Shown here: positions 2,436-24,747 of the stretch, piece after piece
How the letters are laid out: each line of letters starts with the position of its first letter
Position numbering within the stretch: the stretch's first letter is position 1
Assembly (NCBI GenBank): GCA_963702475.1
Contig: CAVPCT010000009.1
Location: forward strand, 306,008 to 370,007
Reading direction: 5' to 3'
DNA: 64,000 bases
DNA from: an uncultured Thermoleophilia bacterium
Lineage (GTDB): Bacteria > Actinomycetota > Thermoleophilia > UBA2241
Program-made: the position numbers and the translations under genes
The notes under the pieces: generated by a model
What the model was told of the DNA's origin: nothing
The model's database searches: none
Seen by the model: the letters and a program-made list of their open reading frames with translations, nothing else

Positions 2436-2723
2436 GTGTCGCACACGCGAGGCCGGCTGTGCCCAAACGGCATACGCCTTGTACTGAAGCTATACTTCGT
2501 GGCCTCACGAGGTGACCAGCTATCGACTCCGAACGCTCGACGCGGTACCCCCGCGAACGGCAAAGGGAGGCCCGTCCTGTGTCGACGGACCATGCGATGC
2601 GATCCACCGAGCGTGCCGCGTCACCAGGGGGCTCGTTGCCTTGGATGACCGACGACGCCCCACGCCCACCGCCCGTGCGCGGTCTGTCTCCGCGCTCTCT
2701 CACCACAATGGAGGTGTGACGCA

Positions 2724-4124
2724 GTGAGCAAGATCTGGACCCGAATGGGTGACGGCAACGCCGTCGAACTGACCCCAGACGAACTCCGCCAGGACATCAT
2801 CGCGGCGACTGAAGACGCCGCGGACAAGGGGCACATCCCGCCCCTTGAAGAGAACGAGATCGACCACCTGTATGACCTCTTCGCGGCGCCGTACCGCATC
2901 ATCGGCGTCGAGCCCGGCCATGAAGTGCCGCTGACCAAGGACGAGACGGCGTGCACCCTCGTCTCCTCGCAGCTGTCGAGTGGTTCACACCTGGCGATAA
3001 GCCGCGAAGACGCAGTCGAAGTCTTCGAGCGCGTGTTCGCGTTCGACACCATGGAGCTGGGCTGGATCGACTACTCCTTCAAGCCGGCGAAGCCCATGGT
3101 CTCTCTGGACCAGGTCTCCATCGAGCGCATCATGGCCACCACCGTGTTCCCGGTGCTCTACGGCGCCATGCCGAACATGGGCCTCTACTACACGCCGGAC
3201 GGGCCGTTCACCAACCCGGCCGACCTCCTCGGCATGATGAAGGTCGAAGAGGCGCGTGAGGAGGAGATGAAGGCCGCCGAGCTCTGCATGGAAGACATGA
3301 TCTTCGTGTGCGAGCGCATGAACGAGATCGGCGCCGACGGCATCGACTTCGACACCACGGCCTCCGCGGGTGACGCCGACTTCTGGTCGGTCCTCAAGAC
3401 GGTCGAGCATCTCAAGGCCCACACCGACCTCGGCGTCGAGATGGGCATGTCCGGCGAGTTCATCCTCGGCATGCACGGCGAGGTCGAGTACAACGGCAAG
3501 AGGCTCGCCGGCATGTTCCCGCACCAGCAGCTGAAGTGCGCGGAAGAGGCGGGCGTCGACATCTTCGGCCCCGTGGTCAACACCAAGACCAACAAGTCCT
3601 GTGCCTGGAACGTCGCCCGCGCCGTCACGTTCGTCAAGGAAGTCTGCAAGCAGGCCACCATCCCGATCCACGCGAACGTGGGTATGGGCGTAGGCGGCAC
3701 GCCGATGTTCGAGACACCGCCGATCGACGCTCTCAGCCGCGCGAGCGTAGCCATGGTCGAGATCGCCAAGGTCGACGGGTTGTAGGTCGGCGTCGGCGAT
3801 CCCTACGGCATGTCCATCATGCACTCGATCGCATCTGGAATGGGTGGCATCCGCACCGCTGGAGACCTGGTGGCAAGGATGGAGCTCAATCACCGGATGA
3901 GGCTTCCCGAGGCGAAGAAGTACGTGGCCGACAAGCTCGGCGTCAGCGTGTTCGACCTGTCGGACTCCACCGTCATGCGCAACCTGCGCGAAGAGCTCAA
4001 CATCGGCGTGATCGAGGCGATCCCGGGCCTGGCGAAGGGCTACACCGCCAAGGCGCGCATCGCCGATCTCCTCGACATCAAGATCAACGGCGTCGAGCGC
4101 CAGATGGCGAAGATGCCGGCTTGA
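2724..4124 (+). CDS. mtbB: Pyrrolysine-containing dimethylamine:corrinoid methyltransferase (in-frame TAG at 3783-3785, codon 354)
   Basis: ORFs 2724-3785 and 3810-4124 are in one frame separated only by TAG. Read-through gives 466 aa with [15 protein letters not shown]...[13 protein letters not shown], the MtbB Pyl-site signature. TRMGDG N-terminus; corrinoid gene follows. Confidence 0.95.
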
Positions 4125-4184: not shown

Positions 4185-4832
4185 ATGGCGAATGAAGACT
4201 TCTATGCGGATGCGAAAGCCGCAATCCGCGCGTGTGACGCCGACAAGTCCGCTCAGGTGGCAACAGACGCCCTCGCGGCCGGCGTAGCGCCCGACGACAT
4301 GCTGAAGCTGGGATTCATCCCGGGCATCAGCGCGATGGGCGATCTCTTCGAGCGCGGCGAGGTGTTCCTCCCCGAGCTCGTCCTCGCGGCGAACGCCATG
4401 ACGGCGGCTGCTGCGGTGTGTAACGCGGCCCTGCCCGAGGGCGAGGCGGAGGCGAAGGCCATCGTCGTCATCGGCACCGTCCAGGGCGACGTGCATGATA
4501 TCGGCAAGACCATCGTCGTCGCGTTCCTCAGGGCCAACGGCTACAACGTGTTCGACCTTGGTCGCGATATCTCGGGCGACAAGTTCATCGCCGCCGCGGA
4601 GGAGAAGGGCGCCGCCGTCATCGGTATGAGTGCCCTGCTCACCACCACCATGCGCGAGCAGACGCGTGTCATCGAGGCTCTCAAGGCCGCGGGTCTGCGC
4701 GACAAGTACAAGGTCATCGTCGGCGGCGGCGCCTGCACCCAGCAGTGGGCCGACAAGATCGGCGCGGACGCGTACGCCGAAGACGCCAACGACGGCATCC
4801 GCAAGATCAACGAGCTCACGGGAAACGCGTGA
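4185..4832 (+). CDS. mtbC: Methyltransferase cognate corrinoid protein (MtbC-like)
   Basis: B12-binding motif GDVHDIGK...SALLTTT...IVGGG, N-terminal cap domain (FLPELV); directly after mtbB. Confidence 0.9.
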   Translation: MANEDFYADAKAAIRACDADKSAQVATDALAAGVAPDDMLKLGFIPGISAMGDLFERGEVFLPELVLAANAMTAAAAVCNAALPEGEAEAKAIVVIGTVQGDVHDIGKTIVVAFLRANGYNVFDLGRDISGDKFIAAAEEKGAAVIGMSALLTTTMREQTRVIEALKAAGLRDKYKVIVGGGACTQQWADKIGADAYAEDANDGIRKINELTGNA

Positions 4833-4855
4833 CCGCACGTTGTTAGGGCGGGATC

Positions 4856-4892
4856 CCGGCGGCGCGGTGGAGCTACTCCGCCGCGCCGCCGG
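4856..4892. terminator. Strong hairpin between convergent genes (likely bidirectional terminator)
   Basis: CCGGCGGCGCGGTGGAG-CTA-CTCCGCCGCGCCGCCGG, 17-bp stem with one G-U pair. Confidence 0.7.
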
Positions 4893-4897
4893 CGCCC

Positions 4898-5779
4898 TCA
4901 GCGTTCACGCACCCATTTCGCGTAGATGTTGGCAGCACGCCGGTCCATCTCCTCGGTCTCGGTCACACCGCTGCGCTCAAGCGCCTCGGCCGCACCCTTC
5001 ACTCGTGCCCGGCGCAGACAGATCAGCGTGACGACAAGCAGGCTGCGCGTGCCCTTGTCGGCCGAGGGCAGCGCCTCCTCGATCGGGGGGATCACCCCTC
5101 CGCCGAGCTCTTCCAGGCCGAGTGCGAGCAGAGGGCCCACGACGGCCTCGCCGTACTCGGACGCCACGGAGATGACGTGCCGCACGCCGGCGTAGCGCAT
5201 CGCCGAGATCTTCGCGCGAGCCTCCGTGCGGCCCGAGTGGACCGTGGAGTACATGCGCATGATCGTGCTCCCTCGGTCCAGCTGCATCCGTGTCAGACTG
5301 GCGCTGATGCGCGAGAGCTGCCGGTCGATCTCCTCGTTGCGGGTCCGCGTCAGTTGCTCGACCTGCTCGCTCATCGCCGCGGCCGGTCCGGCGAGGTCGG
5401 GGCGCGATGCATCCGACGCGACAACGCGCAGCAGCTCGTGGGCGGCGGGCAGGTCACGGTAGCGGGCGTAGAGGTACACGGTGTACAGAGCGCCGCGGCG
5501 GCGCACGTCGTCGTCGGCGTCCAGCTGCCCGGCGACGTCGGTGAACGTCGCTTCGCCGAGCTCGACGAGCACGGCGCCGGCCTTGCGCTGCAGGCTCTCG
5601 TCCCCGAGGCAGGTCAGCAGCGACTCCCGGCCGTTCTGACCGAGGTCGGCGAGAGCCGCGAGGATGGGCCGGCGCACGTCGCGCCTGGTGGCCGCCGCGT
5701 ACAGCTGCGTGAGGCCGGCCACATCACCGGCGTCGTGAAGGCTGGTGATGTCGCTCTGGCTCGGCATCTGGTTGCTCAT
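4898..5779 (-). CDS. Hypothetical alpha-helical (HEAT-repeat-like) protein
   Basis: Real start MSNQMPS at 5779 with GGGAGAG RBS inside the long shadow ORF; DVAGLTQLY / RRPILAALADLG / RRRGALYTV repeats resemble HEAT units. Confidence 0.65.
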   Translation of the reverse strand: MSNQMPSQSDITSLHDAGDVAGLTQLYAAATRRDVRRPILAALADLGQNGRESLLTCLGDESLQRKAGAVLVELGEATFTDVAGQLDADDDVRRRGALYTVYLYARYRDLPAAHELLRVVASDASRPDLAGPAAAMSEQVEQLTRTRNEEIDRQLSRISASLTRMQLDRGSTIMRMYSTVHSGRTEARAKISAMRYAGVRHVISVASEYGEAVVGPLLALGLEELGGGVIPPIEEALPSADKGTRSLLVVTLICLRRARVKGAAEALERSGVTETEEMDRRAANIYAKWVRER

Positions 5780-5909
5780 CGGCTCTCCCCGGGACGTTCG
5801 CTGACATGCCGGCCACACGCCGGCGACGGACAGCGTACCCGCGCCGGTCGCGCAAGGCCAGCGAGGCACCCGGCTGCGGGCGAGCCACGGCCGGGCCCAT
5901 GCAAGGGTA

Positions 5910-5941
5910 TTGACTCCTCGGGTAGACGCAAGGTACCTTGC
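5910..5941 (+). promoter_or_regulatory. Promoter with overlapping 14-bp palindromic operator
   Basis: TTGACT (5910-5915), 18-nt spacer, TACCTT (5934-5939). Perfect palindrome GCAAGGTACCTTGC at 5928-5941 covers the -10. Confidence 0.55.
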
Positions 5942-6190
5942 CTCATCCTTCGGCCCGCCGCGCCCCATCGGGGGAGCGCCGGCGCGACCGACAGAGGTGT
6001 ATCCCTGGTCCTGCGTGCACGGCATCCGGGGGGATCGCCGTCGCACTGGGGAGGTGGTGCCGCAACCTGAGCCGCCGGACGACCACCGGTCTCGCGCCCG
6101 GTGCCGGCCCGTTTCATGCCGGCACGTCACCGGGCCAAAGCCATGGTCCCGGGATCTCTCACACAACGTCAACGAGCAGAGGGGGGAGCA

Positions 6191-7810
6191 ATGATAGTGG
6201 CAGCCGCGATCAGTCCAGTCTGGTACTGGGTCATCGTGCTCGGCTACATGCTCGTGCTGATCGGGATCGGCGCCTGGACGTACCGCTACCAGAAGCAGCA
6301 GAAGTCCGCGACCGACGAGCACGACGACTACTGGATCGCCAAGCGCCGCAACAACGCCCTCGTGGTGGGCTGCGCCATCGCTGCAGGCTGGTTCCTGATG
6401 GGCTTCATCACCTGGGCCATGTACAACACCTACATGTACGGCATCGGCGGCATCTGGGCCATGGTCGTACCGTGGACGGTGCTGCTGTTCTGCATGGTGA
6501 TCCTCGTGCCGTGGGTACGGCGCATGAAGGCCATCTCGCAGCCGCAGATGCTCCAGCAGCGCTTCGGACTGGCTCTGCGCGTGCTCGTGAGCCCGTTCAA
6601 CATGTTCTGCTTCATCATCTGGGCCGCGGCGGAGATCTGGACGGTCTCGCTGTACATGGCGTCGGCATTCGGCGTCCAACCCTGGGTCCTCTACATCGTC
6701 TTCGCCGTGCCCTGCGCCCTCTACATGGCCCTGGGCGGCTTCCACGCCGTCATCAGCGCCAACCTGCTGCAGTTCGCCATGGGCGTCACCTTCGTCACCA
6801 TCATCTTCTTCGTGATGGTCTTTGAGGCGTGGGACGCCCTGCCCAGTGGCCAGAGCATGATCGACTACCTCGGGAGCGTCGTACCGGCGGGCAACTCGGA
6901 AGGCGACAGTGCGCTCACGCTCTTCAGCCTGGGCATACCGTTCGCCATCTTCTCGCTCATCGCACTCCTGCCGGGGTGGGTGATCGAGGAGGACTGGTGG
7001 CTCAAGGCGCAGTCGGCCAAGAGCACGCGTGCCGCACGGCAGGGCATCTGGGCCAACCTGAGCTACAACCTCATCTGGATCCTCGGCCTGCCGAGCCTCA
7101 TCGGCCTCTTCGCCCTCGTGCTTTATCCGCCGGAAGTGCTCGACACCAAGCTGGCCGGGAACGCCTACGAGCTCATGCCGGTGTTCCTGGGTGACTACTT
7201 CCCGCCTTGGCTGCAGATGATCGTGTTCTGCCTCATGGCTGCACACGCCGTAGCCACGGTGGCTACGTTCACCAACGTGTCGGCCCTCAACATCAGCTAC
7301 GACGTCCTGCAGCCGCTCGTATACCGCAAGCGCGGGTGGGGTGACGCCAGGATCGTGCTGGCCAGCCGCATCGCGTCGCTGTTGGTCGTCATCGCCACCC
7401 TGGGCGTGACGTTCCTCATCGACATGCTGCCGCAGGGCCTGTGGGACGCGTACTACCTGTCCAGCGGTGTGCTCTCTGCTGCCGTCGGCGTCTCCGTACT
7501 CTCCATCTTCTGGAAGCGCGCCAACTTCGCCGGTGCTTTCGCTGCGTCGCTCGTCGGTGGCGTCACCACACTCGTGCTGTTCATCGTGGAGAAGTACGTC
7601 TGGGAGTACGACTGGCCGATCCCGATCCCGGATTCCATGGTCGCTACCGGCTACGCCTACGCGGTGGTCGGCGTGATCCTCGCCATCATCACCCTGGTCG
7701 TGGTCACGCTGCTGACGCCCAAGCCGCCGCAGATCAACCTCGACTCCATCTCGGCGCAACCCGTTGACGATCACGCCGAGTTCTTCGCCGGCGTGCGTGA
7801 GACGTACTGA
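6191..7810 (+). CDS. Sodium:solute symporter (SSS) family transporter
   Basis: ATG at 6191 after GAGGGGGGAG; about 13 hydrophobic segments; DYWIAKR, GGFHAVISANLLQ, WKRANFAGAFAA and SLLTP-like SSF motifs. Confidence 0.88.
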   Translation: MIVAAAISPVWYWVIVLGYMLVLIGIGAWTYRYQKQQKSATDEHDDYWIAKRRNNALVVGCAIAAGWFLMGFITWAMYNTYMYGIGGIWAMVVPWTVLLFCMVILVPWVRRMKAISQPQMLQQRFGLALRVLVSPFNMFCFIIWAAAEIWTVSLYMASAFGVQPWVLYIVFAVPCALYMALGGFHAVISANLLQFAMGVTFVTIIFFVMVFEAWDALPSGQSMIDYLGSVVPAGNSEGDSALTLFSLGIPFAIFSLIALLPGWVIEEDWWLKAQSAKSTRAARQGIWANLSYNLIWILGLPSLIGLFALVLYPPEVLDTKLAGNAYELMPVFLGDYFPPWLQMIVFCLMAAHAVATVATFTNVSALNISYDVLQPLVYRKRGWGDARIVLASRIASLLVVIATLGVTFLIDMLPQGLWDAYYLSSGVLSAAVGVSVLSIFWKRANFAGAFAASLVGGVTTLVLFIVEKYVWEYDWPIPIPDSMVATGYAYAVVGVILAIITLVVVTLLTPKPPQINLDSISAQPVDDHAEFFAGVRETY

Positions 7811-10254: not shown

Positions 10255-11730
10255 ATGATTCGAAGTCAAAGGTCAGGCATCAACCACCAGGGCGGCATCG
10301 GCATCGATGTCTTCAGCGAGGATGAGAGGCAGGCCATCCACTGGGGCACCGTCGAGGTGCTCGAGACGGCCGGCATCTGGGTGGAGGACGACGAGGCCCT
10401 CGACCTGTTCGCCGACGGCGGCTGCAAGGTCGACCGCTCGACGCGCAAGGTGCGGATCCCGCAGCACGTGCTCGAGGAGTGCATCAGTTGGGCGCCCTCC
10501 ACGGTCACCCTCTGCGGCCGCGACCCCGCCAAGGACCTCGTCATGGAGGGCCGGCGGGTCGCGTTCACCAACTTCGCCGAGGGAGTGAAGGCCGTCGACC
10601 TGTACGACGGCAAGCTTCGCCCGACCACCAAGAAGGACGTCGGCGACCTCGCCCGTCTCGTCGACGCGCTCTCCGACATCGAGGTCTACACGATCGCGGT
10701 GACGGCCACCGACGTGCCCCCGGAGGTCGCCGAGGCGCACCTCATCGAGCAGTCGTTGCTGAACACGACGAAGCCCATCTGCAGCCTGGCCCTCGCCCAT
10801 CACGGCGCCCGCCTCCACATCGACGCCGCGGCCGCCGTGGTCGGCGGCCACGACAAGCTGGCCGACCGGCCGATGCTGCTCTTCCTCAGCTGCCCGGTCA
10901 GCCCGCTCAAGCTCATGGGCGAGTTCAGCGGGTGCATCATCGAGGCGGCCCGCGCCCATCAGGTCGCGATGCCGCTATCGATGGCCATGTCAGGCGGCTC
11001 CGCCCCGGTCACCCTGGCCGGCACCATGGTCACGCACAACGCCGAGGTGCTCGCCGGCATCGTCCTGGCGCAGCTCGCCGAGAAGGGCGCCAAGTGCGTC
11101 TACGGCACCTCCACCACCGCCTTCGACCTGCAGCGCGCGGCCGCGACCGTGGGCACCCCGGAGCTCGGCCTCATCAGCGCGGCCGTGGCCGAGATGGGCC
11201 GCTACTATGGCCTGCCGACCTACGGCGCCGGGTTGTAGAGCGATTCCAAGCTCGGCGGCGACGCCCAGGTCGCGCACGAGAAGACCGTCACCGGCCTCCT
11301 GCCAGCGTTGGGAGGGCTCAACCTGATCTATGGAGCCGGGATGATCGAGTCGGGCGTCACCATCGACTACGGCACGCTCGTCATGGACAACGACATCGCC
11401 CGTATCTGCAAGTACGTCCTGCGTGGCATCCCCACGAACGACGCGACGCTGATGGTTGATGAGATCATCGAGGTGGGGTCCGAGGAGGACTTCCTCTCGA
11501 GGATGAGCACCCTGAAGCTGATGCGTGAACACCAGTCCAAGGCCGGCAACATCGACCGCCGCGTGCGCGAGGAGTGGGAGATGGACGGCGGCAAGGACAT
11601 GTACAGCCGCTGCAACGAGATGGCCAAGGAGCTCGTCGAGAGCCACACGGTTCCCGAGCTGCCGAGCGACGTCAAGGACCAGATCAGGGCCATCGTCGTC
11701 AAGGCCGAGAAGGACGCTGGAGTCGCCTGA
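10255..11730 (+). CDS. mttB: Pyrrolysine-containing trimethylamine:corrinoid methyltransferase (in-frame TAG at 11236-11238, codon 328)
   Basis: ORFs 10255-11238 and 11308-11730 share a frame. Read-through gives 491 aa with YYGLPTYGAGL-O-SDSKLGGDAQVAHEK...NLIYGAGMIESG, matching the Pyl site of MttB. Also SMAMSGGSAPVTLAGT and HNAEVL motifs; AAGAAGGAGG RBS. Confidence 0.95.
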
Positions 11731-11779
11731 GAGCTCAGCGCTCCGCAACGAACGCACGACGTGGAGGACATAGGATCCT

Positions 11780-12406
11780 ATGGCAGACTTTGACTCTCTC
11801 AAGCAGATGATCGTCGACGGCAACGACGCCGCCACGGCCGCCACCCAGGCGCTCGTGGACGGCGGCGCCTCCGCCCGCGATATCCTCGACAGCGCCCTGC
11901 TTCCCGGCATGGACATCGTCGGCGCGCAGATGAAGAGCGGCGACAAGTTCATCCCCGAGGTGCTGCTCAGCGCCCGCACCATGCAGGGCTGCCTCGACAT
12001 CATCAAGCCGCTTCTTGGTGAGGGCGGCGGCTCCCTCGGCACGGTCGTCATCGCCACCGTCGAGGGCGACATGCACGACATCGGCAAGAACCTCGTCGCC
12101 ATGCTGCTCAGCGGCGCCGGCTTCGAGGTCGTCAACCTCGGCAAGGGCATCACCTGCGCCGACATGGTCGCCGCCTGCAAAGAGCACGACGCCGACATCC
12201 TCGGCATGAGCGGCCTGCTGACCACCACCATCCCCAAGATGCCCGAGACCATCCAGGCCCTCAAGGACGCCGGCCTGCGCGACAAGGTCAAGGTCATCGT
12301 CGGCGGCGCCCCGGTCAGTGCCGAGTGGGCCGCCGAGGTGGGCGCCGACGCCTACGGTGCCAACGCGTCCCTCGGCGTCGAGAAGTGCAAGGAGCTCATG
12401 GGCTGA
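11780..12406 (+). CDS. mttC: Methyltransferase cognate corrinoid protein (MttC-like)
   Basis: GDMHDIGKNLV, SGLLTTT, IVGGAP motifs; directly after mttB. Confidence 0.9.
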   Translation: MADFDSLKQMIVDGNDAATAATQALVDGGASARDILDSALLPGMDIVGAQMKSGDKFIPEVLLSARTMQGCLDIIKPLLGEGGGSLGTVVIATVEGDMHDIGKNLVAMLLSGAGFEVVNLGKGITCADMVAACKEHDADILGMSGLLTTTIPKMPETIQALKDAGLRDKVKVIVGGAPVSAEWAAEVGADAYGANASLGVEKCKELMG

Positions 12407-12455
12407 GTCCCAGCCCGTGAGGGCGGCCTCGCCGCCCTGGATGAGCTGCGTGACG

Positions 12456-12500
12456 GGGAGCGCCCCCGCCGCCTACCCGGCGGCGGGGGCGCTCCCTTGT
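12456..12500 (+). terminator. Intrinsic terminator after mttB-mttC
   Basis: GGGAGCGCCCCCGCCGCC-TACCC-GGCGGCGGGGGCGCTCCC perfect 18-bp stem, then TTGT. Confidence 0.75.
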
Positions 12501-12531
12501 CGTCCGCCTCCCCCGAAGCCACGAAACCCTG

Positions 12532-12559
12532 TTGACGCGCGCCGAGACCGACGTATGGT
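12532..12559 (+). promoter_or_regulatory. Putative promoter of the APC permease
   Basis: TTGACG (12532-12537), 16-nt spacer, TATGGT (12554-12559). Confidence 0.5.
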
Positions 12560-12752
12560 TCGTTGTACAAAGGGCAGGGGCCCACGCCGGGCCATGGACA
12601 CAAGGAGGATGCGACAGCCGAAGCAGACAAGGGACCCGGCCCCGCACGGTCTCGGCGACATGTCAAGGGCCCGGATGGGCACCGACGCCCTCAGCGCCAC
12701 CAAGGGCCAGGCGCCAGAGTGAACGTCAGGCAGCGTACGCACGGGGGAGAGC

Positions 12753-14363
12753 ATGGCACAGAACGACTACCTTGAAGGGTACTCAGAGGAGTACAAGGCA
12801 TCCCGGATGAACACGAACATGCGCCGCGACCTGAGCTGGGTCGGCGCTTTCTTCGTCGCCGCCGGAGTGCCCGCGCTGGTCCTCTTCCAGATGGGCGGCG
12901 TCTCCGGCATGACCGGGGCGGTTGCAGCGCTCGTCTGGACGATCTCGGTCCTCATCGGCTTCGTCGACGCGTTCACCTACGCGGAGATCGCCGGGCTGCA
13001 CCCCAAGAAGTCAGGCGGCACGGCCGTCCACGGCGCCACCGCCTGGATCCGCTACATCCGCCCGACGGCGGCCATCTCGCTGTGGTGCAACTGGCTGGCG
13101 TGGACACCGGTGCTCGCCATCGGCGCCGGCCTCGGGGCCTCGTATCTTCTGTCCATCTTCTACGCACCCGACTCCACGATCATGACGTGGCAGTGGACCA
13201 TTGCCGACCTGGGCTTCCTCAAGGACGGCCTCACGCTGCGTATCAACGCCGTGTTCATCGTCGGCGCCGTCATCATCCTGGCCGTCTGGAACATCCAGCA
13301 CTACGGCATCCTGCGCACCGCGCGCGTACAGACGATCCTCACCATCGGCGCCGTCACGCCGCTGCTGGTGCTCTCGATCGTGCCGCTGGTCACCGGCGAC
13401 GTCGTGATGAGCAACTTCTCGCCCTTCACGCCCGTCAACGGCGCCTGGGACATCACCGGCTGGGAGTTCTTCCTCGGGGCCCTCTTCATCTGCGCCTGGA
13501 CGACCTACGCCTTCGAGACCGCCGTCTGCTACATGAGTGAGTTCAAGAACCCGGCGAAGGACATGTCGAAGGCGATCATCATCTCCGGCCTGTTCTGCAT
13601 CCTGTGCTTCACGCTCATCCCGTTCGTGTTCCAGGGTGTGCTCGGCACCGAGTACATGCTGCAGGCCGACGTGATCTCCGGTGCGGCGGTGCCCCAGGCC
13701 TGGGCCGACGTCGTGAGCGCCGGCAGCTTCCTGACCAACGTCATCATCGTGCTCCTGTTCTTCACGGTGGTCGTCGCGATCATGACGGCCATGTCCGGCT
13801 CGTCGCGCACGCTGTTCCAAGGCGGGCAGGACGGCTGGCTGCCCAAGTACCTGTCGCACCTGAACAACCACAAGGTGCCCACGTACGCCATGTGGACCGA
13901 CCTCGGCGTCAACCTCGTGCTGCTGCTCATGTCGGACTACCTGTTCGTGCTGGCGGTGTCCAACTGCAACTACATGATCTTCAACTTCCTGAACCTGAAC
14001 GCAGGCTGGATCCACCGCATCGACAACGCCAAAGTGCCGCGGCCGTACAAGGCGCCGCTGCCCCTGTTCGTGCTCGGCGCCTGCTTCGCCTACTTGAACG
14101 CGTTCCTCCTCGGTGCCGGCGCGAACGCGTGGGGCTCGGGGACGCTCCTCATGGGCTGGATCACGGCGCTCATAGCACTGCCGTTCTTCTACTATCGCCA
14201 CTACGTGACGGACAAGGGCCAGTTCCCCAAGCACATGTGGGACGACCTGCTGCTCGAGGGCGAGACGGAGCTCGGGCCGACGAAGGCCGGCATCAAGCCG
14301 TACATCGCGGTGGCCGGCGGCCTGGCGTCCATGGCGCTCGGCTACGTCATCTTCTGGGTCTGA
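12753..14363 (+). CDS. APC-family permease, probable methylated-amine transporter
   Basis: 12+ TM segments; GVPALVL, YAEIAGL.P.KSGG, FETAVCY.SEFKNP, SSRTLFQ and RPYKAP motifs; lies next to mttBC. Confidence 0.88.
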   Translation: MAQNDYLEGYSEEYKASRMNTNMRRDLSWVGAFFVAAGVPALVLFQMGGVSGMTGAVAALVWTISVLIGFVDAFTYAEIAGLHPKKSGGTAVHGATAWIRYIRPTAAISLWCNWLAWTPVLAIGAGLGASYLLSIFYAPDSTIMTWQWTIADLGFLKDGLTLRINAVFIVGAVIILAVWNIQHYGILRTARVQTILTIGAVTPLLVLSIVPLVTGDVVMSNFSPFTPVNGAWDITGWEFFLGALFICAWTTYAFETAVCYMSEFKNPAKDMSKAIIISGLFCILCFTLIPFVFQGVLGTEYMLQADVISGAAVPQAWADVVSAGSFLTNVIIVLLFFTVVVAIMTAMSGSSRTLFQGGQDGWLPKYLSHLNNHKVPTYAMWTDLGVNLVLLLMSDYLFVLAVSNCNYMIFNFLNLNAGWIHRIDNAKVPRPYKAPLPLFVLGACFAYLNAFLLGAGANAWGSGTLLMGWITALIALPFFYYRHYVTDKGQFPKHMWDDLLLEGETELGPTKAGIKPYIAVAGGLASMALGYVIFWV

Positions 14364-22724: not shown

Positions 22725-23580
22725 ATGGCAGGGCCTGGGCAAGGTCCAGTTCTCCAAGTGGCAGGGCCTCGGCAACAACTACATCGTGATGCACGAGGAG
22801 CAGCTCCCGTTCGAGCTCACGCCCCAGCGCGTCCGTTTGCTGTGCGACCGCAACGTGGGTATCGGCTCCGACGGCATCATGCTCATCGGGGAGCAGACCG
22901 GAGAGGCGCGCTGGAAGGTCCGCATCTTCAACCCCGACGGCAGCGAGGCGGAGATGTGCGGTAACGGCGTGCGCATGGTCGCGCGCAAGTTGCAGATGGA
23001 AGGGTCCATCGTCGACACCGTCGTCCTCGAGACGGCTGCGGGTGAGATCGTCCCGAGACTGGGAGACGGCTTCCAGGTCACCGTCGACATGGGCGTGGCC
23101 CGCTTCGGTGGCGAGAAGCTCAACGGGTTCGAGGGCGACTGCGTGGAGCAGTCGCTGCATGCTGCGGGCCGCAACTTCACCTTCACCTTCGTGGACGTAG
23201 GCAACCCGCACGCGGTCATACAGTCGCCGTGGCCGCTGGAGCTCGTCCCGCTGCACGAGATAGGCCCCATGATCGAGGAGCACAAGTACTTTCCGCGCAA
23301 GGCCAACGTGGAGTTCGTCAAGGTCGTGAGCCGGCACGAGGCCAAGGTGCGCGTCTGGGAGCGGGGCGTGGGGGAGACCAGGGCGTGCGGGACAGGCGCC
23401 ACGGCGACCGCCGTCGCCCTGGTACGTACCGGCCAGTGCGACACGCCCGTCACGGTCGAGCTGCCCGGCGGCAAGCTGGTCGTTGACGTGGCCGACGACT
23501 GTCGCGTGCACATGACCGGGCCCGCAGAAGAGATCTACCACGGCGACCTCTCCCGGGAGTTCCTTGCCCACCTGGAGTAG
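22725..23580 (+). CDS. dapF: Diaminopimelate epimerase (start probably ATG 22725 with one surplus G at about 22731)
   Basis: FSKWQGLGNNY, GIGSDG, NPDGSEAEMCGNG, VGNPH, ERGVGETRACGTGA. Removing one G from ATGGCAGGG yields MAGLGKVQFSK. Stop is TAG. Confidence 0.93.
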
Positions 23581-23583
23581 CGG

Positions 23584-24747
23584 ATGAAGTTCTCACAGCG
23601 AGTCGAAGGCCTGCCGCCGTACCTGTTCGCCGGCATCGAGCGACAGATCGCGGAGCGCCGAGCCCGCGGCCTCGACGTCATCAGCCTGGGCATCGGCGAT
23701 CCCGACCTGCCCACGCCGCCTCACGTCGTCGAGGCGCTCGCCGAGGCCGCACGAGATCCGGCCGTGCACCAGTACCCCAGCAACCAGGGGGAGCAGGGCT
23801 TTCGCGAGGCGGTCGCTTCCTTCTACGGCTCGCGCTTCGGCGTCGAGGTGCACCCGGCCACAGAGATCGTCCCGCTGCTGGGCGCCAAAGAGGGGATAGC
23901 CCACATCGGCCTCGCCCTGCTCGATGTGGGCGACGTGGCCCTCGCCGCCGACCCCGGCTACCCCGTGTACGTCACAGGTCCCCTGCTGGCCGACGGCGTC
24001 GCCGTGCCGGTGCCGCTCATCCCCGAACTGGGCTTCCAGCCCGACCTGGGGACGATCCCCGCCGAGACGGCGGAGAAGGCCAAGCTCATCTTCGTGAGCT
24101 ATCCCAACAATCCCACCGGAGCGGTGATCGAGGACGACTTCTTCTCCCGCCTCGTCGGCTGGGCCAAGGCCCATGACGTCGTGGTGGTCCACGACAACGC
24201 CTACGCAGACATCACCTACGACGGCTACGTGGCGCCGAGCTTTCTCGCGACGCCTGGGGCCTTGGAGGTCGGTGTCGAGATGTTCAGCCTGTCGAAGAGC
24301 TACAACATGACCGGCTGGCGGTCGGGCGCCATCGTGGGCAACGCCGAGATCGTCGACGCGTTCTGGCGGCTGAAGACGAACATGGATTCGGGCATGTTCG
24401 GCGCCGTGCAGCGGGCCAGCGCCGTGGCTCTGTCGAGCTCGCAGGACTGCGTGCGCGAGATGTGCCGCGTGTACGCGAGGCGGCGCGACCTGCTGGTCGA
24501 GGCCCTGCGGTCGCTCGGCATGCACGTGGACCCGCCCAAGGGGACCATCTACCTGTGGGCGCCGGTGCCGGACGGGTATACGTCGGCGAGCTTCACCGAG
24601 ACGGTGCTCGAGCAGGCCGACGTGGTGGTCACGCCGGGGGCCGCCTACGGCGCCGCCGGCGAGGGCTACGTGCGCCTGTCGCTGACGATCGCCGACGAGC
24701 GCCTCGAAGAGGCCGTCCGCCGCATCGAGGAGCGGGTACGACTCTAG
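23584..24747 (+). CDS. dapL: LL-diaminopimelate aminotransferase
   Basis: LPPYLFA, SLGIGDPD, GAKEGIAH, YPNNPTG, HDNAY, SLSKSYNMTGWR; next to dapF. Confidence 0.85.
   Translation: MKFSQRVEGLPPYLFAGIERQIAERRARGLDVISLGIGDPDLPTPPHVVEALAEAARDPAVHQYPSNQGEQGFREAVASFYGSRFGVEVHPATEIVPLLGAKEGIAHIGLALLDVGDVALAADPGYPVYVTGPLLADGVAVPVPLIPELGFQPDLGTIPAETAEKAKLIFVSYPNNPTGAVIEDDFFSRLVGWAKAHDVVVVHDNAYADITYDGYVAPSFLATPGALEVGVEMFSLSKSYNMTGWRSGAIVGNAEIVDAFWRLKTNMDSGMFGAVQRASAVALSSSQDCVREMCRVYARRRDLLVEALRSLGMHVDPPKGTIYLWAPVPDGYTSASFTETVLEQADVVVTPGAAYGAAGEGYVRLSLTIADERLEEAVRRIEERVRL

What the first reader, a model, noticed from the sequence alone, without database searches (positions are those of the whole stretch)
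2724..4124. mtbB read through an amber codon (DGL-O-VGVGDP)
The ORF caller splits the gene into 353 and 104 aa. The 24 nt between TAG and the second ORF's ATG encode conserved MtbB residues (VGVGDPYG), so the TAG is sense and gives 466 aa. Bacterial dimethylamine-specific MtbB is less commonly reported than MttB.
Basis: partly seen in the sequence, partly recalled or inferred. Interest (0 to 1): 0.8.

Follow-up and report, generated by a model that had tools for sequence, protein, structure and literature searches.

The report
Pyrrolysine-coding dimethylamine methyltransferase gene, Thermoleophilia
This is one intact gene for a dimethylamine methyltransferase whose internal TAG "stop" codon is read as the rare amino acid pyrrolysine, in an uncultured high-GC actinobacterium; it is a real but already documented kind of gene that gene callers routinely cut in two.

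Summary
ORFs 2724-3785 (353 aa) and 3810-4124 (104 aa) are one frame interrupted only by TAG 3783-3785. Read through, it gives 466 aa that match the MtbB family end to end (PF09505 E 2.6e-197; TIGR02368 equivalog 544 bits, cut-off 369).

The TAG sits on the pyrrolysine column:
- It aligns to the UAG at positions 1-3 of Rfam PYLIS_2.
- It shares a column with the TAG of 6 other mtbB copies in this genome.
- The same holds for 79 of 79 related loci, two of them from Methanomassiliicoccaceae.

dN/dS after the TAG (0.14-0.19) equals that before it (0.13-0.20).

The genome encodes pylB, pylC, pylD, tRNA-Pyl(CUA), pylSn and pylSc. It keeps RF1, and TAG ends 248 of 1699 confident ORFs, so this is local recoding, not reassignment. 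A corrinoid protein gene follows at 4185-4832.

The organism is a Thermoleophilia-type actinobacterium. 53 of 55 sampled genomes of its family carry mtbB.

Pyrrolysine-type mtbB is in print for Deltaproteobacteria (2007, 2021) and Actinobacteriota (2023). This scan has also noted it before on other DNA (25 notes, at least 19 genomes). Verdict: new member of a known kind, low to moderate interest.

A covarying hairpin at 3856-3873, part of Rfam PYLIS_2, is the most testable extra.

The parts
2710..2714 (+). Shine-Dalgarno-like GGAGG, 9 nt before the GTG start of mtbB
   Evidence: Sequence read directly.
2724..4124 (+). mtbB, dimethylamine:corrinoid protein Co-methyltransferase. 466 aa with TAG read as pyrrolysine; GTG start; TGA stop at 4122-4124.
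   Evidence: PF09505 E 2.6e-197 in one stretch, residues 6-459. TIGR02368 equivalog 544.4 bits against a cut-off of 369.1. AlphaFold2 model with mean pLDDT 93.2, a TIM barrel.
3783..3785 (+). In-frame TAG, the pyrrolysine codon (residue 354) in the motif D-G-L-O-V-G-V-G-D
   Evidence: Aligned to the UAG at positions 1-3 of Rfam RF02509. Same column in 7 of 7 full-length copies in this genome, in 79 of 79 related loci, and invariant in 50 of 50 aligned sequences.
3783..3882 (+). Match to Rfam PYLIS_2 (RF02509), 100 nt starting at the TAG
   Evidence: 78.1 bits against a gathering score of 36. The 100 nt fold no better than shuffles (z +0.63; 140 of 200 shuffles fold at least as well), and helix 1 is weak (71% of cells paired). 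The score is therefore mostly conserved coding sequence plus hairpin 2.
3856..3873 (+). Conserved 7-bp hairpin with a 4-nt loop (AGAY), 73-90 nt after the first base of the TAG, inside the codons for A-G-D-L-V-A
   Evidence: on 83 distinct sequences. Pair 75:90 is CG 32, GC 13, UG 12, AU 10, UA 9, unpaired 7. Pair 78:87 is CG 50, UG 18, GC 9, UA 4, AU 1, unpaired 1. Both pairs join third codon positions. The other 5 pairs are invariant or nearly so. This hairpin also appears in the minimum-energy fold.
4185..4832 (+). Cognate corrinoid protein (MtbC-like), 215 aa, with GGAGG upstream
   Evidence: PF02607 cap domain plus PF02310 B12-binding domain. TIGR02370 212.3 bits (cut-off 215.3) and MtbC equivalog NF041607 208.7 bits (cut-off 350), both below cut-off. 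It is a family-level corrinoid partner, named MtbC from its position.
10255..11730 (+). Second pyrrolysine gene of the island: mttB (trimethylamine methyltransferase), with TAG at 11236-11238
   Evidence: TIGR02369 equivalog 619.2 bits against a cut-off of 525. PF06253. Rfam PYLIS_3 at 11236-11338. The TAG lies in the motif A-G-L-O-S-D-S-K, shared with 12 other full-length copies in the genome.
11780..12406 (+). Corrinoid protein next to mttB
   Evidence: PF02607 plus PF02310. No NCBIfam corrinoid-protein model reached its cut-off.
12723..14363 (+). Permease downstream of mttB/mttC, matching the trimethylamine N-oxide permease equivalog
   Evidence: NF053774 753.2 bits against a cut-off of 690. 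PF13520.
6101..7810 (+). Sodium:solute symporter family transporter between the mtbB and mttB pairs. Substrate unknown.
   Evidence: PF00474. TIGR00813 superfamily, below cut-off.

Best explanation
Positions 2724-4124 are one gene, mtbB, for a corrinoid-dependent dimethylamine methyltransferase. Its UAG at codon 354 is translated as pyrrolysine.

Shown here:
- The frame is continuous and under selection on both sides of the UAG.
- The UAG is on the family's pyrrolysine column.
- The genome encodes the biosynthesis genes pylB, pylC and pylD, an amber-suppressor tRNA-Pyl(CUA) and the split bacterial synthetase PylSn + PylSc.
- A corrinoid protein gene follows mtbB.
- Elsewhere the genome has RamA-type corrinoid activases, UroD-family methyltransferases (one of them 1 kb from an activase) and acetyl-CoA synthase.

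Inferred:
- Pyl-tRNA(Pyl) reads this UAG in competition with RF1. RF1 is present and still serves the roughly 15% of genes that end in TAG.
- Pyrrolysine 354 sits on a barrel strand (residues 352-355 of the model). There it binds and activates dimethylamine so that one methyl group passes to Co(I) of the neighbouring corrinoid protein. This chemistry is the established model for pyrrolysine methyltransferases and is recalled, not tested.
- A second methyltransferase passes the methyl group on, probably to tetrahydrofolate, into the Wood-Ljungdahl pathway.
- The monomethylamine left over is used by the pyrrolysine-type MtmB encoded 4.6 kb upstream of the window.
For: - Family: PF09505 E 2.6e-197 and TIGR02368 equivalog above cut-off, each as one stretch across the TAG.
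- Column: Rfam RF02509 positions 1-3 (UAG) align to 3783-3785. The TAG is in the same column in 7 of 7 full-length copies in this genome, which are 45-59% identical. It is in the motif D-G-[LI]-O-[VIA]-G-x-G-D in 79 of 79 related loci, including 2 Methanomassiliicoccaceae at 51% identity.
- Selection: in 4 orthologs of 82-86% identity, dN/dS is 0.14-0.19 after the TAG and 0.13-0.20 before it.
- Machinery: PylB 435.6 bits against a cut-off of 348.2, PylC 323.8 against 248.3, PylD 209.6 against 150.05, PylSc 314.3 against 178.15, and PylSn 126.2 against 51.15. tRNA-Pyl has anticodon CUA, a 6-bp anticodon stem and a 3-nt variable loop, and lies just after pylD. pylSc lies beside another mtbB copy.
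- Same organism: pylS is present in 5 of 5 related actinobacterial genomes that carry mtbB. One of them is a single 4.6-Mb contig with pylS and two mtbB copies within 30 kb.
- Lineage: 53 of 55 sampled genomes of the same family and 34 of 36 of the same genus have mtbB. All 150 listed matches have exactly one TAG.
- Partners: corrinoid protein at 4185-4832; RamA-like genes at 3 loci; UroD-family genes, one at C8:50583-51587 beside the RamA-like gene at C8:52485-53276; AcsB.
- Not reassignment: TAG ends 248 of 1699 confident ORFs, and RF1 scores 477 bits against a cut-off of 423.
- Reads: contigs of two runs bridge the TAG with 31 or more letters on both sides (a DNA run of another study, record 29, and an RNA library, record 12). 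None of the 40 listed differences falls on 3783-3785.
- In print: Actinobacteriota MAGs expressing pyrrolysine-encoding mttB and mtbB (PMC10805028, passages).
Against: - No protein evidence: pyrrolysine at residue 354 has not been seen by mass spectrometry, and no bacterial MtbB was assayed here.
- Dimethylamine specificity is inferred from an equivalog profile and 51% identity to archaeal loci that are themselves uncharacterised.
- The neighbouring corrinoid protein scores below the MtbC equivalog cut-off (208.7 against 350) and just below TIGR02370 (212.3 against 215.3).
- The read check used assembled contigs only, of near relatives (mostly 90-99% alike), and 97 difference rows were not shown. 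It cannot exclude a variant at the TAG in the source sample.
- The genome is a bin with 6.49% estimated contamination, and the pyl genes lie on another contig (C3) than the window (C9).
- Two full-length database relatives carry Q (P0031) or L (P0033) at this column, either from another gene-calling code or as real pyrrolysine-free forms.
- How the cell spares its 248 TAG-ended ORFs from read-through is unknown.
Confidence: 0.88

Rival explanations
1. The enzyme is a genuine pyrrolysine protein, but its physiological substrate is not free dimethylamine. It could be another secondary or tertiary amine, or one of several substrates divided among the seven paralogs.
For: The genome holds 7 full-length pyrrolysine-type MtbB copies that are only 45-59% identical, beside 13 pyrrolysine-type and dozens of pyrrolysine-free MttB members. 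That pattern suggests substrate diversification. The adjacent corrinoid protein misses the MtbC equivalog cut-off. No bacterial MtbB assay was found in the passages read.
Against: Of the seven copies, this one scores highest against the family profile (652.9 bits) and is above the equivalog cut-off. It lies between a pyrrolysine-type mtmB and a pyrrolysine-type mttB, which is the arrangement expected for stepwise demethylation of trimethylamine.
Confidence: 0.1
2. The TAG is a true stop. The locus would then be a pseudogene, a gene split into two products, or a sequencing or assembly error.
For: TAG is an ordinary stop in this genome (248 of 1699 ORF ends), and RF1 is present. An ATG at 3810 could start a 104-aa product.
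Against: The TAG is conserved in 79 of 79 independent assemblies and 7 of 7 paralogs. The 8 codons between the TAG and the ATG encode invariant family residues (G356, G358, D359). dN/dS after the TAG equals that before it. The full pyl machinery is present.
Confidence: 0.01
3. TAG is reassigned genome-wide to pyrrolysine, as reported for some archaea. It would then not be a special recoding event in a few genes.
For: The genome has at least 21 full-length genes with an in-frame TAG at a pyrrolysine column. A genome-wide UAG-to-pyrrolysine code in archaea is cited by a paper of which passages were read (PMC13695967 citing Kivenson et al. 2025).
Against: TAG ends 14.6% of confident ORFs (248 of 1699). 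That count includes the amino-terminal pieces of pyrrolysine genes, about 20. RF1 is present above cut-off. Window genes such as the diaminopimelate epimerase and the aminotransferase end in TAG at the expected family ends.
Confidence: 0.01

Closest known systems
MtbB, dimethylamine:corrinoid protein Co-methyltransferase of methylotrophic methanogens (Pfam PF09505 Dimeth_Pyl; NCBIfam TIGR02368). Founding members are Methanosarcina barkeri MtbB1-3 (Paul, Ferguson and Krzycki 2000; seen only as a reference in other papers, not held).
   Same: Length is 466 aa. There is a single in-frame UAG at the same column, followed by 112 further codons. The fold is a TIM barrel, and a corrinoid protein gene follows. 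The window protein is 51% identical to the Methanomassiliicoccaceae loci L085 and L088.
   Different: The host is a high-GC actinobacterium, not a methanogen. The synthetase is the split bacterial PylSn + PylSc form. The methyl acceptor downstream is probably tetrahydrofolate and the Wood-Ljungdahl pathway rather than coenzyme M (inferred). No sequence named Methanosarcina was available for direct alignment.
Pyrrolysine-type MtbB of Deltaproteobacteria: the Olavius delta1 symbiont (PMC1976440, passages read) and marine Desulfobacterales (PMC8318568, passages read)
   Same: These are bacterial hosts with pylT, pylSn, pylSc and pylBCD. They carry several mtbB and mttB copies with an in-frame UAG, and selenocysteine and pyrrolysine occur in one genome (tRNA-Sec is also found here). 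Desulfobacterales loci are 51-57% identical and have the same TAG column.
   Different: The phylum differs. The copy number here is higher: 7 MtbB + 13 MttB + 1 MtmB full-length TAG genes, against 8 in the delta1 symbiont.
Pyrrolysine-encoding mttB and mtbB expressed by Actinobacteriota MAGs of a thawing permafrost mire (PMC10805028, passages read; genera Bog-752 and RBG-16-64-13 are named there)
   Same: Same phylum and the same genes. Two loci from mire MAGs (L037 fen_672, L045 bog_752) are 60-62% identical to the window protein and carry the TAG.
   Different: In the passages read, that paper gives one sentence and a truncation-based call. It gives no alignment of the column, no pyl machinery, no family-wide survey and no selection test. 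The window's nearest relatives (82-86% identity) are other MAGs labelled Thermoleophilia.
Rfam RF02509 PYLIS_2 ('pyrrolysine insertion sequence mtbB'), from the prediction study PMC3639795 (passages read)
   Same: The window matches the whole model at 78.1 bits. The second hairpin is present and covaries.
   Different: In the window, helix 1 has 4 non-standard pairs. Across 83 sequences it is paired in only 71% of cells. Columns 78:87 pair and covary but are not paired in the model's consensus structure line. A role in pyrrolysine insertion has not been tested for mtbB, as far as the passages read say.

Membership tests
MtbB (PF09505 / TIGR02368 equivalog) | Full-length match to the family profile above the curated cut-off | tested here: met
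   PF09505 656.4 bits (cut-off 25), protein 6-459 on profile 5-459 of 463. TIGR02368 544.4 bits (cut-off 369.1).
MtbB (PF09505 / TIGR02368 equivalog) | A single in-frame UAG at the conserved pyrrolysine column | tested here: met
   Rfam model positions 1-3. 7 of 7 paralogs. 79 of 79 loci, including 2 archaeal methanogen-lineage loci. Invariant in 50 of 50 sequences.
MtbB (PF09505 / TIGR02368 equivalog) | The host encodes pylT, pylS and pylBCD | tested here: met
   All are above the curated cut-offs. They lie on contig C3, while the window is on C9. Co-occurrence in 5 of 5 related genomes.
MtbB (PF09505 / TIGR02368 equivalog) | An adjacent cognate corrinoid protein with cap and B12-binding domains | tested here: met
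   PF02607 + PF02310 at 4185-4832, 60 nt after the mtbB stop.
MtbB (PF09505 / TIGR02368 equivalog) | The corrinoid partner is an MtbC equivalog | tested here: inconclusive
   NF041607 208.7 bits against a cut-off of 350. TIGR02370 212.3 bits against 215.3.
MtbB (PF09505 / TIGR02368 equivalog) | TIM-barrel catalytic fold of the corrinoid methyltransferase type | tested here: met
   Model pLDDT 93.2, with residue 354 on strand 352-355. Best matches are the methionine synthase N-terminal half (Z 18.3, rmsd 3.6, 263 aligned) and the M. mazei methyltransferase 4ay7 (Z 18.1, rmsd 3.6, 251 aligned). No solved MtbB was found by sequence.
MtbB (PF09505 / TIGR02368 equivalog) | Dimethylamine-dependent methylation of the Co(I) corrinoid protein | not testable with these tools
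   This needs purified protein made with pyrrolysine.
MtbB (PF09505 / TIGR02368 equivalog) | Pyrrolysine physically present at residue 354 | not testable with these tools
   This needs mass spectrometry of the peptide spanning residue 354.
Rfam PYLIS_2 (RF02509) | Score above the gathering threshold, starting at the UAG | tested here: met
   78.1 bits against 36, model positions 1-100.
Rfam PYLIS_2 (RF02509) | Helix 1 (columns 7-19 with 25-38) supported | tested here: inconclusive
   4 non-standard pairs in the window. 71.4% of cells paired across 83 sequences, and pairs 11:34, 12:33 and 17:27 are mostly unpaired. The whole 100 nt fold no better than shuffles.
Rfam PYLIS_2 (RF02509) | Hairpin 2 (columns 74-91) supported by compensatory change | tested here: met
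   Helix 2 as tested (columns 73-92, 8 pairs) has 91.6% of cells paired. Pairs 75:90 and 78:87 each show 5 standard pair types at third codon positions. For both helices together, double-sided changes occur in 62 cells against 29.2 +/- 4.5 in shuffles (0 of 500 reach it). Slid controls pair at most 41.7% of cells.
Rfam PYLIS_2 (RF02509) | Acts in UAG decoding | not testable with these tools
   This needs a read-through reporter with synonymous hairpin mutants.

The most novel reading that the evidence does not exclude
This Thermoleophilia family may be a pyrrolysine-dependent methylamine specialist. This genome has at least 21 full-length UAG-pyrrolysine genes, yet it keeps RF1 and ends about 15% of its genes in TAG. 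It would therefore need a way to tell pyrrolysine UAGs from stop UAGs. The 7-bp hairpin at 3856-3873, kept by compensatory changes at synonymous sites from actinobacteria to Desulfobacterales, Bacillota and archaea, could be part of that signal, for example by pausing or by recruiting a factor. That would go against the common view that pyrrolysine insertion needs no mRNA element.
Probability: 0.15. Interest if true: 0.75.

Novelty: new member of a known kind. Interest (0 to 1): 0.3.

Why it matters
For annotation: standard gene callers cut this gene at the TAG. Of the 120 best database relatives listed, 118 cover at most 76% of the query, that is, no further than the TAG. Methylamine use by soil, sediment and peat actinobacteria is therefore systematically under-called.

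For ecology: bacteria that demethylate tri-, di- and monomethylamine compete with methylotrophic methanogens for methane precursors. A family in which 53 of 55 sampled genomes carry mtbB is a candidate sink for those precursors.

For the genetic code: a bacterium with about 21 pyrrolysine genes, RF1 and many TAG stops is a natural test case for how ambiguous UAG decoding is managed. The covarying hairpin gives a concrete element to mutate.

None of this changes the verdict on the finding itself, which is a well-supported example of a known recoding event.

Tried and rejected
- Methanosarcina alignment: no sequence named Methanosarcina could be fetched. I used two loci titled Methanomassiliicoccaceae and the Rfam model instead.
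- Solved structures: the sequence search found nothing meaningful (best E 0.054, a light-harvesting protein). Foldseek gave only generic TIM barrels with TM 0.23-0.39 on the query.
- PYLIS as a stable structure: the 100 nt after the TAG fold at -33.8 kcal/mol against a shuffle mean of -36.0 (z +0.63). Helix 1 is poorly supported. I do not claim a whole-element structure.
- Raw reads: all four runs laid were assembled contigs, so neither depth, strand nor transcript ends can be read. An RNA-library contig over the TAG does not prove transcription, because DNA can be present in such libraries.
- L077 (85% identity) has a frame break upstream of the TAG, probably a long-read indel. It was dropped from the dN/dS test. 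L043, L065, L068 and L093 are cut by contig ends or frame breaks and were left out of alignment A2, though they were counted in the 79 of 79.
- Regions 1363-2650 and 4847-6070 on the + strand showed no convincing gene. The latter region holds a 293-aa minus-strand gene (4898-5779) with no family match. mtbB and its corrinoid gene therefore form a two-gene unit followed by a convergent gene.
- Literature: 'pyrrolysine' with 'Thermoleophilia' gave 1 paper, an unrelated soil survey (listing only). With 'Actinomycetota' it gave 8 papers and with 'Actinobacteriota' 5. Only PMC10805028 bears on this finding.
Full report
**1. Observation**

The ORF list gives 2724..3785 (+, 353 aa, GTG start) and 3810..4124 (+, 104 aa, ATG start) in the same frame. 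The sequence shows TAG at 3783-3785. It is followed by GTC GGC GTC GGC GAT CCC TAC GGC (V-G-V-G-D-P-Y-G) and then the ATG. With TAG read as a residue, the frame gives 466 aa ending at TGA 4122-4124, with the recoded residue at position 354. GGAGG lies 9 nt before the GTG start.

**2. What the protein is**

The read-through product matches Pfam PF09505 (Dimeth_Pyl) at E 2.6e-197. The match is one stretch, residues 6-459 on profile positions 5-459 of 463, so it runs straight across the TAG. It also passes the NCBIfam equivalog TIGR02368 for dimethylamine:corrinoid protein Co-methyltransferase, at 544.4 bits against a cut-off of 369.1.

No solved structure of the family exists by sequence search. 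An AlphaFold2 model built from a 50-sequence alignment is confident (mean pLDDT 93.2, pTM 0.93). It is a TIM barrel, with residue 354 on strand 352-355. Foldseek finds only generic barrels. A wider structural search puts it nearest to other methyl-transfer barrels: the N-terminal half of methionine synthase (Z 18.3, rmsd 3.6, 263 aligned) and a Methanosarcina mazei methyltransferase, 4ay7 (Z 18.1, rmsd 3.6, 251 aligned).

**3. Is the TAG on the pyrrolysine column?**

Four tests agree.
- *Rfam model.* RF02509 (PYLIS_2, 'pyrrolysine insertion sequence mtbB') matches 3783-3882 at 78.1 bits against a gathering score of 36. The model's positions 1-3 are UAG and align to the window's TAG.
- *Paralogs.* The genome holds 16 matches to PF09505. 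Seven are full-length, and each has exactly one in-frame TAG. Aligned, the seven are 45-59% identical to the window copy, and all TAGs share one column.
Of these, 548 encode relatives, and 79 distinct loci were kept. All 79 have TAG in the motif D-G-[LI]-O-[VIA]-G-x-G-D. Two of them are titled Methanomassiliicoccaceae archaeon and are 51% identical to the window protein. In all 79 the frame continues for 110-120 codons after the TAG.
- *Alignment.* In a 50-sequence alignment the column is invariant.

**4. Is the part after the TAG translated?**

In four orthologs of 82-86% identity (L017-L020), dN/dS is 0.13-0.20 before the TAG and 0.14-0.19 after it. The 112 downstream codons carry 38-42 synonymous and 26-35 non-synonymous differences. 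A fifth ortholog, L077, has a frame break and was dropped. A dead 3' tail would drift towards dN/dS of 1.

**5. Can the organism make and insert pyrrolysine?**

- On contig C3 lie pylB (435.6 bits against a cut-off of 348.2), pylC (323.8 against 248.3) and pylD (209.6 against 150.05) in a row.
- A tRNA with anticodon CUA follows directly at C3:641046-641118. Its cloverleaf has a 6-bp anticodon stem, a 3-nt variable loop and a short D arm. I recall these as the hallmarks of tRNA-Pyl.
- pylSn lies 1.1 kb further on (126.2 bits against 51.15).
- pylSc is at C3:657644-658501 (314.3 bits against 178.15), beside another TAG-containing mtbB copy.

The split synthetase is the bacterial arrangement. 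That the window (C9) and these genes (C3) belong to one organism is supported by relatives. pylS is present in 5 of 5 related actinobacterial genomes that carry mtbB. One of these is a single 4.6-Mb contig with pylS at 103 kb and mtbB copies at 88-96 and 110-118 kb.

**6. Recoding, not reassignment**

Among 1699 long ORFs with the codon-position GC pattern of real genes, 1400 end in TGA, 248 in TAG (14.6%) and 51 in TAA. The TAG count includes the amino-terminal pieces of pyrrolysine genes. RF1 is present above its cut-off (477.2 bits against 423.25). Ordinary window genes end in TAG. UAG is therefore ambiguous in this cell. How stops are protected is not known. Regulated expression of the pyl genes is the explanation proposed for other bacteria; this is recalled and not tested.

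**7. Context and pathway**

Sixty nucleotides after mtbB comes a 215-aa corrinoid protein with cap and B12-binding domains. It scores just under the TIGR02370 cut-off and well under the MtbC equivalog cut-off. I therefore call it MtbC-like by position only. A convergent 293-aa gene of no known family ends the unit.

The wider island holds the following:
- a sodium:solute symporter;
- three universal stress proteins and a PAS protein;
- a pyrrolysine-type mttB (TIGR02369 619.2 bits against a cut-off of 525, TAG at 11236-11238);
- the corrinoid protein of that mttB;
- a permease above the cut-off of the trimethylamine N-oxide permease equivalog (753.2 bits against 690).

A pyrrolysine-type mtmB lies 4.6 kb before the window.

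Elsewhere the genome has RamA-type corrinoid activases at three loci and UroD-family methyltransferases, one of them 1 kb from an activase. It also has acetyl-CoA synthase. The likely flow is as follows. Dimethylamine gives a methyl group to Co(I) of the corrinoid protein, catalysed by MtbB with pyrrolysine holding the amine. A second methyltransferase moves the methyl group on, probably to tetrahydrofolate. It then enters the Wood-Ljungdahl pathway. These steps are inferred from gene content and from the established biochemistry of the archaeal system.

**8. Who is it, and how common is this?**

The window is 64-72% GC. Its RNase Y is 89-91% identical to that of two MAGs titled 'uncultured Thermoleophilia bacterium' whose mtbB is 82-85% identical. 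In one of them the two genes lie 13.5 kb apart, against 14.7 kb here.

In a sample of 301 genomes of the class, 63 have mtbB. In the window's own family the figure is 53 of 55, and in its genus 34 of 36. All 150 listed matches have exactly one TAG; 118 more matches were not listed.

Beyond mtbB, this genome has 13 full-length MttB copies with TAG in one shared motif, 2 partial ones, 1 MtmB with TAG, and dozens of MttB-family copies without TAG.

In the protein database, 3100 relatives reach E 1e-10 among the 8000 candidates scored. Of the 120 best listed, 118 cover at most 76% of the query, so they reach no further than the TAG. Two are full-length, with Q or L at the column.

**9. Reads**

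Only assembled contigs of public runs were available. Contigs from three DNA-type runs of three studies and one metatranscriptome library lie on the gene at 90-100% likeness. Two contigs bridge the TAG with at least 31 letters on each side: X5 record 29 and RNA-library X11 record 12. None of the 40 listed differences is at 3783-3785, but 97 rows were not shown. This is weak support. The 79 independent assemblies are the stronger argument against a sequencing error.

**10. The RNA element**

The 100 nt after the TAG are not unusually stable (z +0.63; 140 of 200 shuffles fold at least as well). Helix 1 of the Rfam model is weak: it has 4 non-standard pairs in the window, and 71.4% of cells are paired over 83 distinct sequences.

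The second hairpin is different. Alignment columns 74-91 (window 3856-3873) form 7 base pairs around an AGAY loop. The two pairs that join third codon positions vary in step.
- Pair 75:90 is CG 32, GC 13, UG 12, AU 10, UA 9, unpaired 7.
- Pair 78:87 is CG 50, UG 18, GC 9, UA 4, AU 1, unpaired 1.

Over both helices together, double-sided changes occur in 62 cells against 29.2 +/- 4.5 in shuffles (0 of 500 shuffles reach it). Slid controls pair at most 41.7% of cells, against 79.9% observed.

The element is catalogued as Rfam PYLIS_2, and a canonical mtbB structure was proposed in 2013 (PMC3639795, passages). In the passages read, its function is untested.

**11. Comparison with what is known**

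Pyrrolysine-type MtbB in bacteria was reported in 2007 for a deltaproteobacterial worm symbiont with 6 MtbB and 2 MttB (PMC1976440, passages). It was reported in 2021 for marine Deltaproteobacteria (PMC8318568, passages). [quoted passage not shown] Two loci from MAGs whose isolate names are of the fen/bog type used in that study are among my hits.

A search for 'pyrrolysine' with 'Thermoleophilia' found one unrelated paper (listing only).

Earlier notes of this scan describe the same thing in other genomes (25 notes in at least 19 genomes). They also describe the hairpin, and one first-reader note covers this window's island. My tests agree with them.

**12. Verdict**

This is a new member of a known kind. 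It is ordinary within its lineage, under-annotated in databases and thinly covered in print. Interest is 0.3. The more novel possibilities remain open: the hairpin may act as a decoding signal, and the seven paralogs may have diverged in substrate.

Noticed in passing
window 3856-3873: A 7-bp hairpin with an AGAY loop lies inside the codons for A-G-D-L-V-A, 73-90 nt after the TAG. Compensatory changes occur at two pairs that join synonymous third codon positions, across actinobacteria, Desulfobacterales, Bacillota and others (83 sequences). It is part of Rfam PYLIS_2. Columns 78:87 pair but are unpaired in the model's structure line.
   Followed up: partly
window 10255-14363: A second pyrrolysine gene, mttB (TAG at 11236-11238, above the equivalog cut-off), is followed by a corrinoid protein. 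Next comes a permease above the cut-off of the trimethylamine N-oxide permease equivalog NF053774. This suggests uptake of TMAO or a related amine next to the trimethylamine methyltransferase.
   Followed up: partly
G000 whole genome (C2-C9); for example C9:301399-302748, 4.6 kb before the window: The genome has at least 21 full-length genes with TAG at a pyrrolysine column: 7 MtbB, 13 MttB and 1 MtmB. It also has 2 partial MttB copies, several mtbB fragments, and dozens of MttB-family and 4 MtmB-family copies without TAG. This is a very large set for a bacterium; the 2007 record holder had 8.
   Followed up: partly
loci L017-L095: In 25 of 79 related mtbB genes, the first in-frame stop after the pyrrolysine codon is itself TAG. 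The same mRNA would then need one UAG read through and another UAG obeyed. I did not look at what follows these terminal TAGs.
   Followed up: no
window 23578-23586: The diaminopimelate epimerase gene ends in TAG. The aminotransferase gene starts in the same frame two codons later (TAG CGG ATG). Read-through of this TAG would fuse the two proteins.
   Followed up: no
G000 C3:167171-167268 and C3:641046-641118: tRNA-Sec (UCA) and tRNA-Pyl (CUA) are both present, so the organism appears to use both the 21st and the 22nd amino acid.
   Followed up: no
window 4898-5779 (-): A 293-aa gene convergent on mtbB and its corrinoid gene has strong codon-position GC bias but no Pfam or NCBIfam match. On the + strand the same stretch shows only spurious ORFs.
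   Followed up: partly
proteins P0031 and P0033: Two full-length database relatives carry Q or L where the others have the TAG. These are either gene calls made under another code or real pyrrolysine-free MtbB forms.
   Followed up: no
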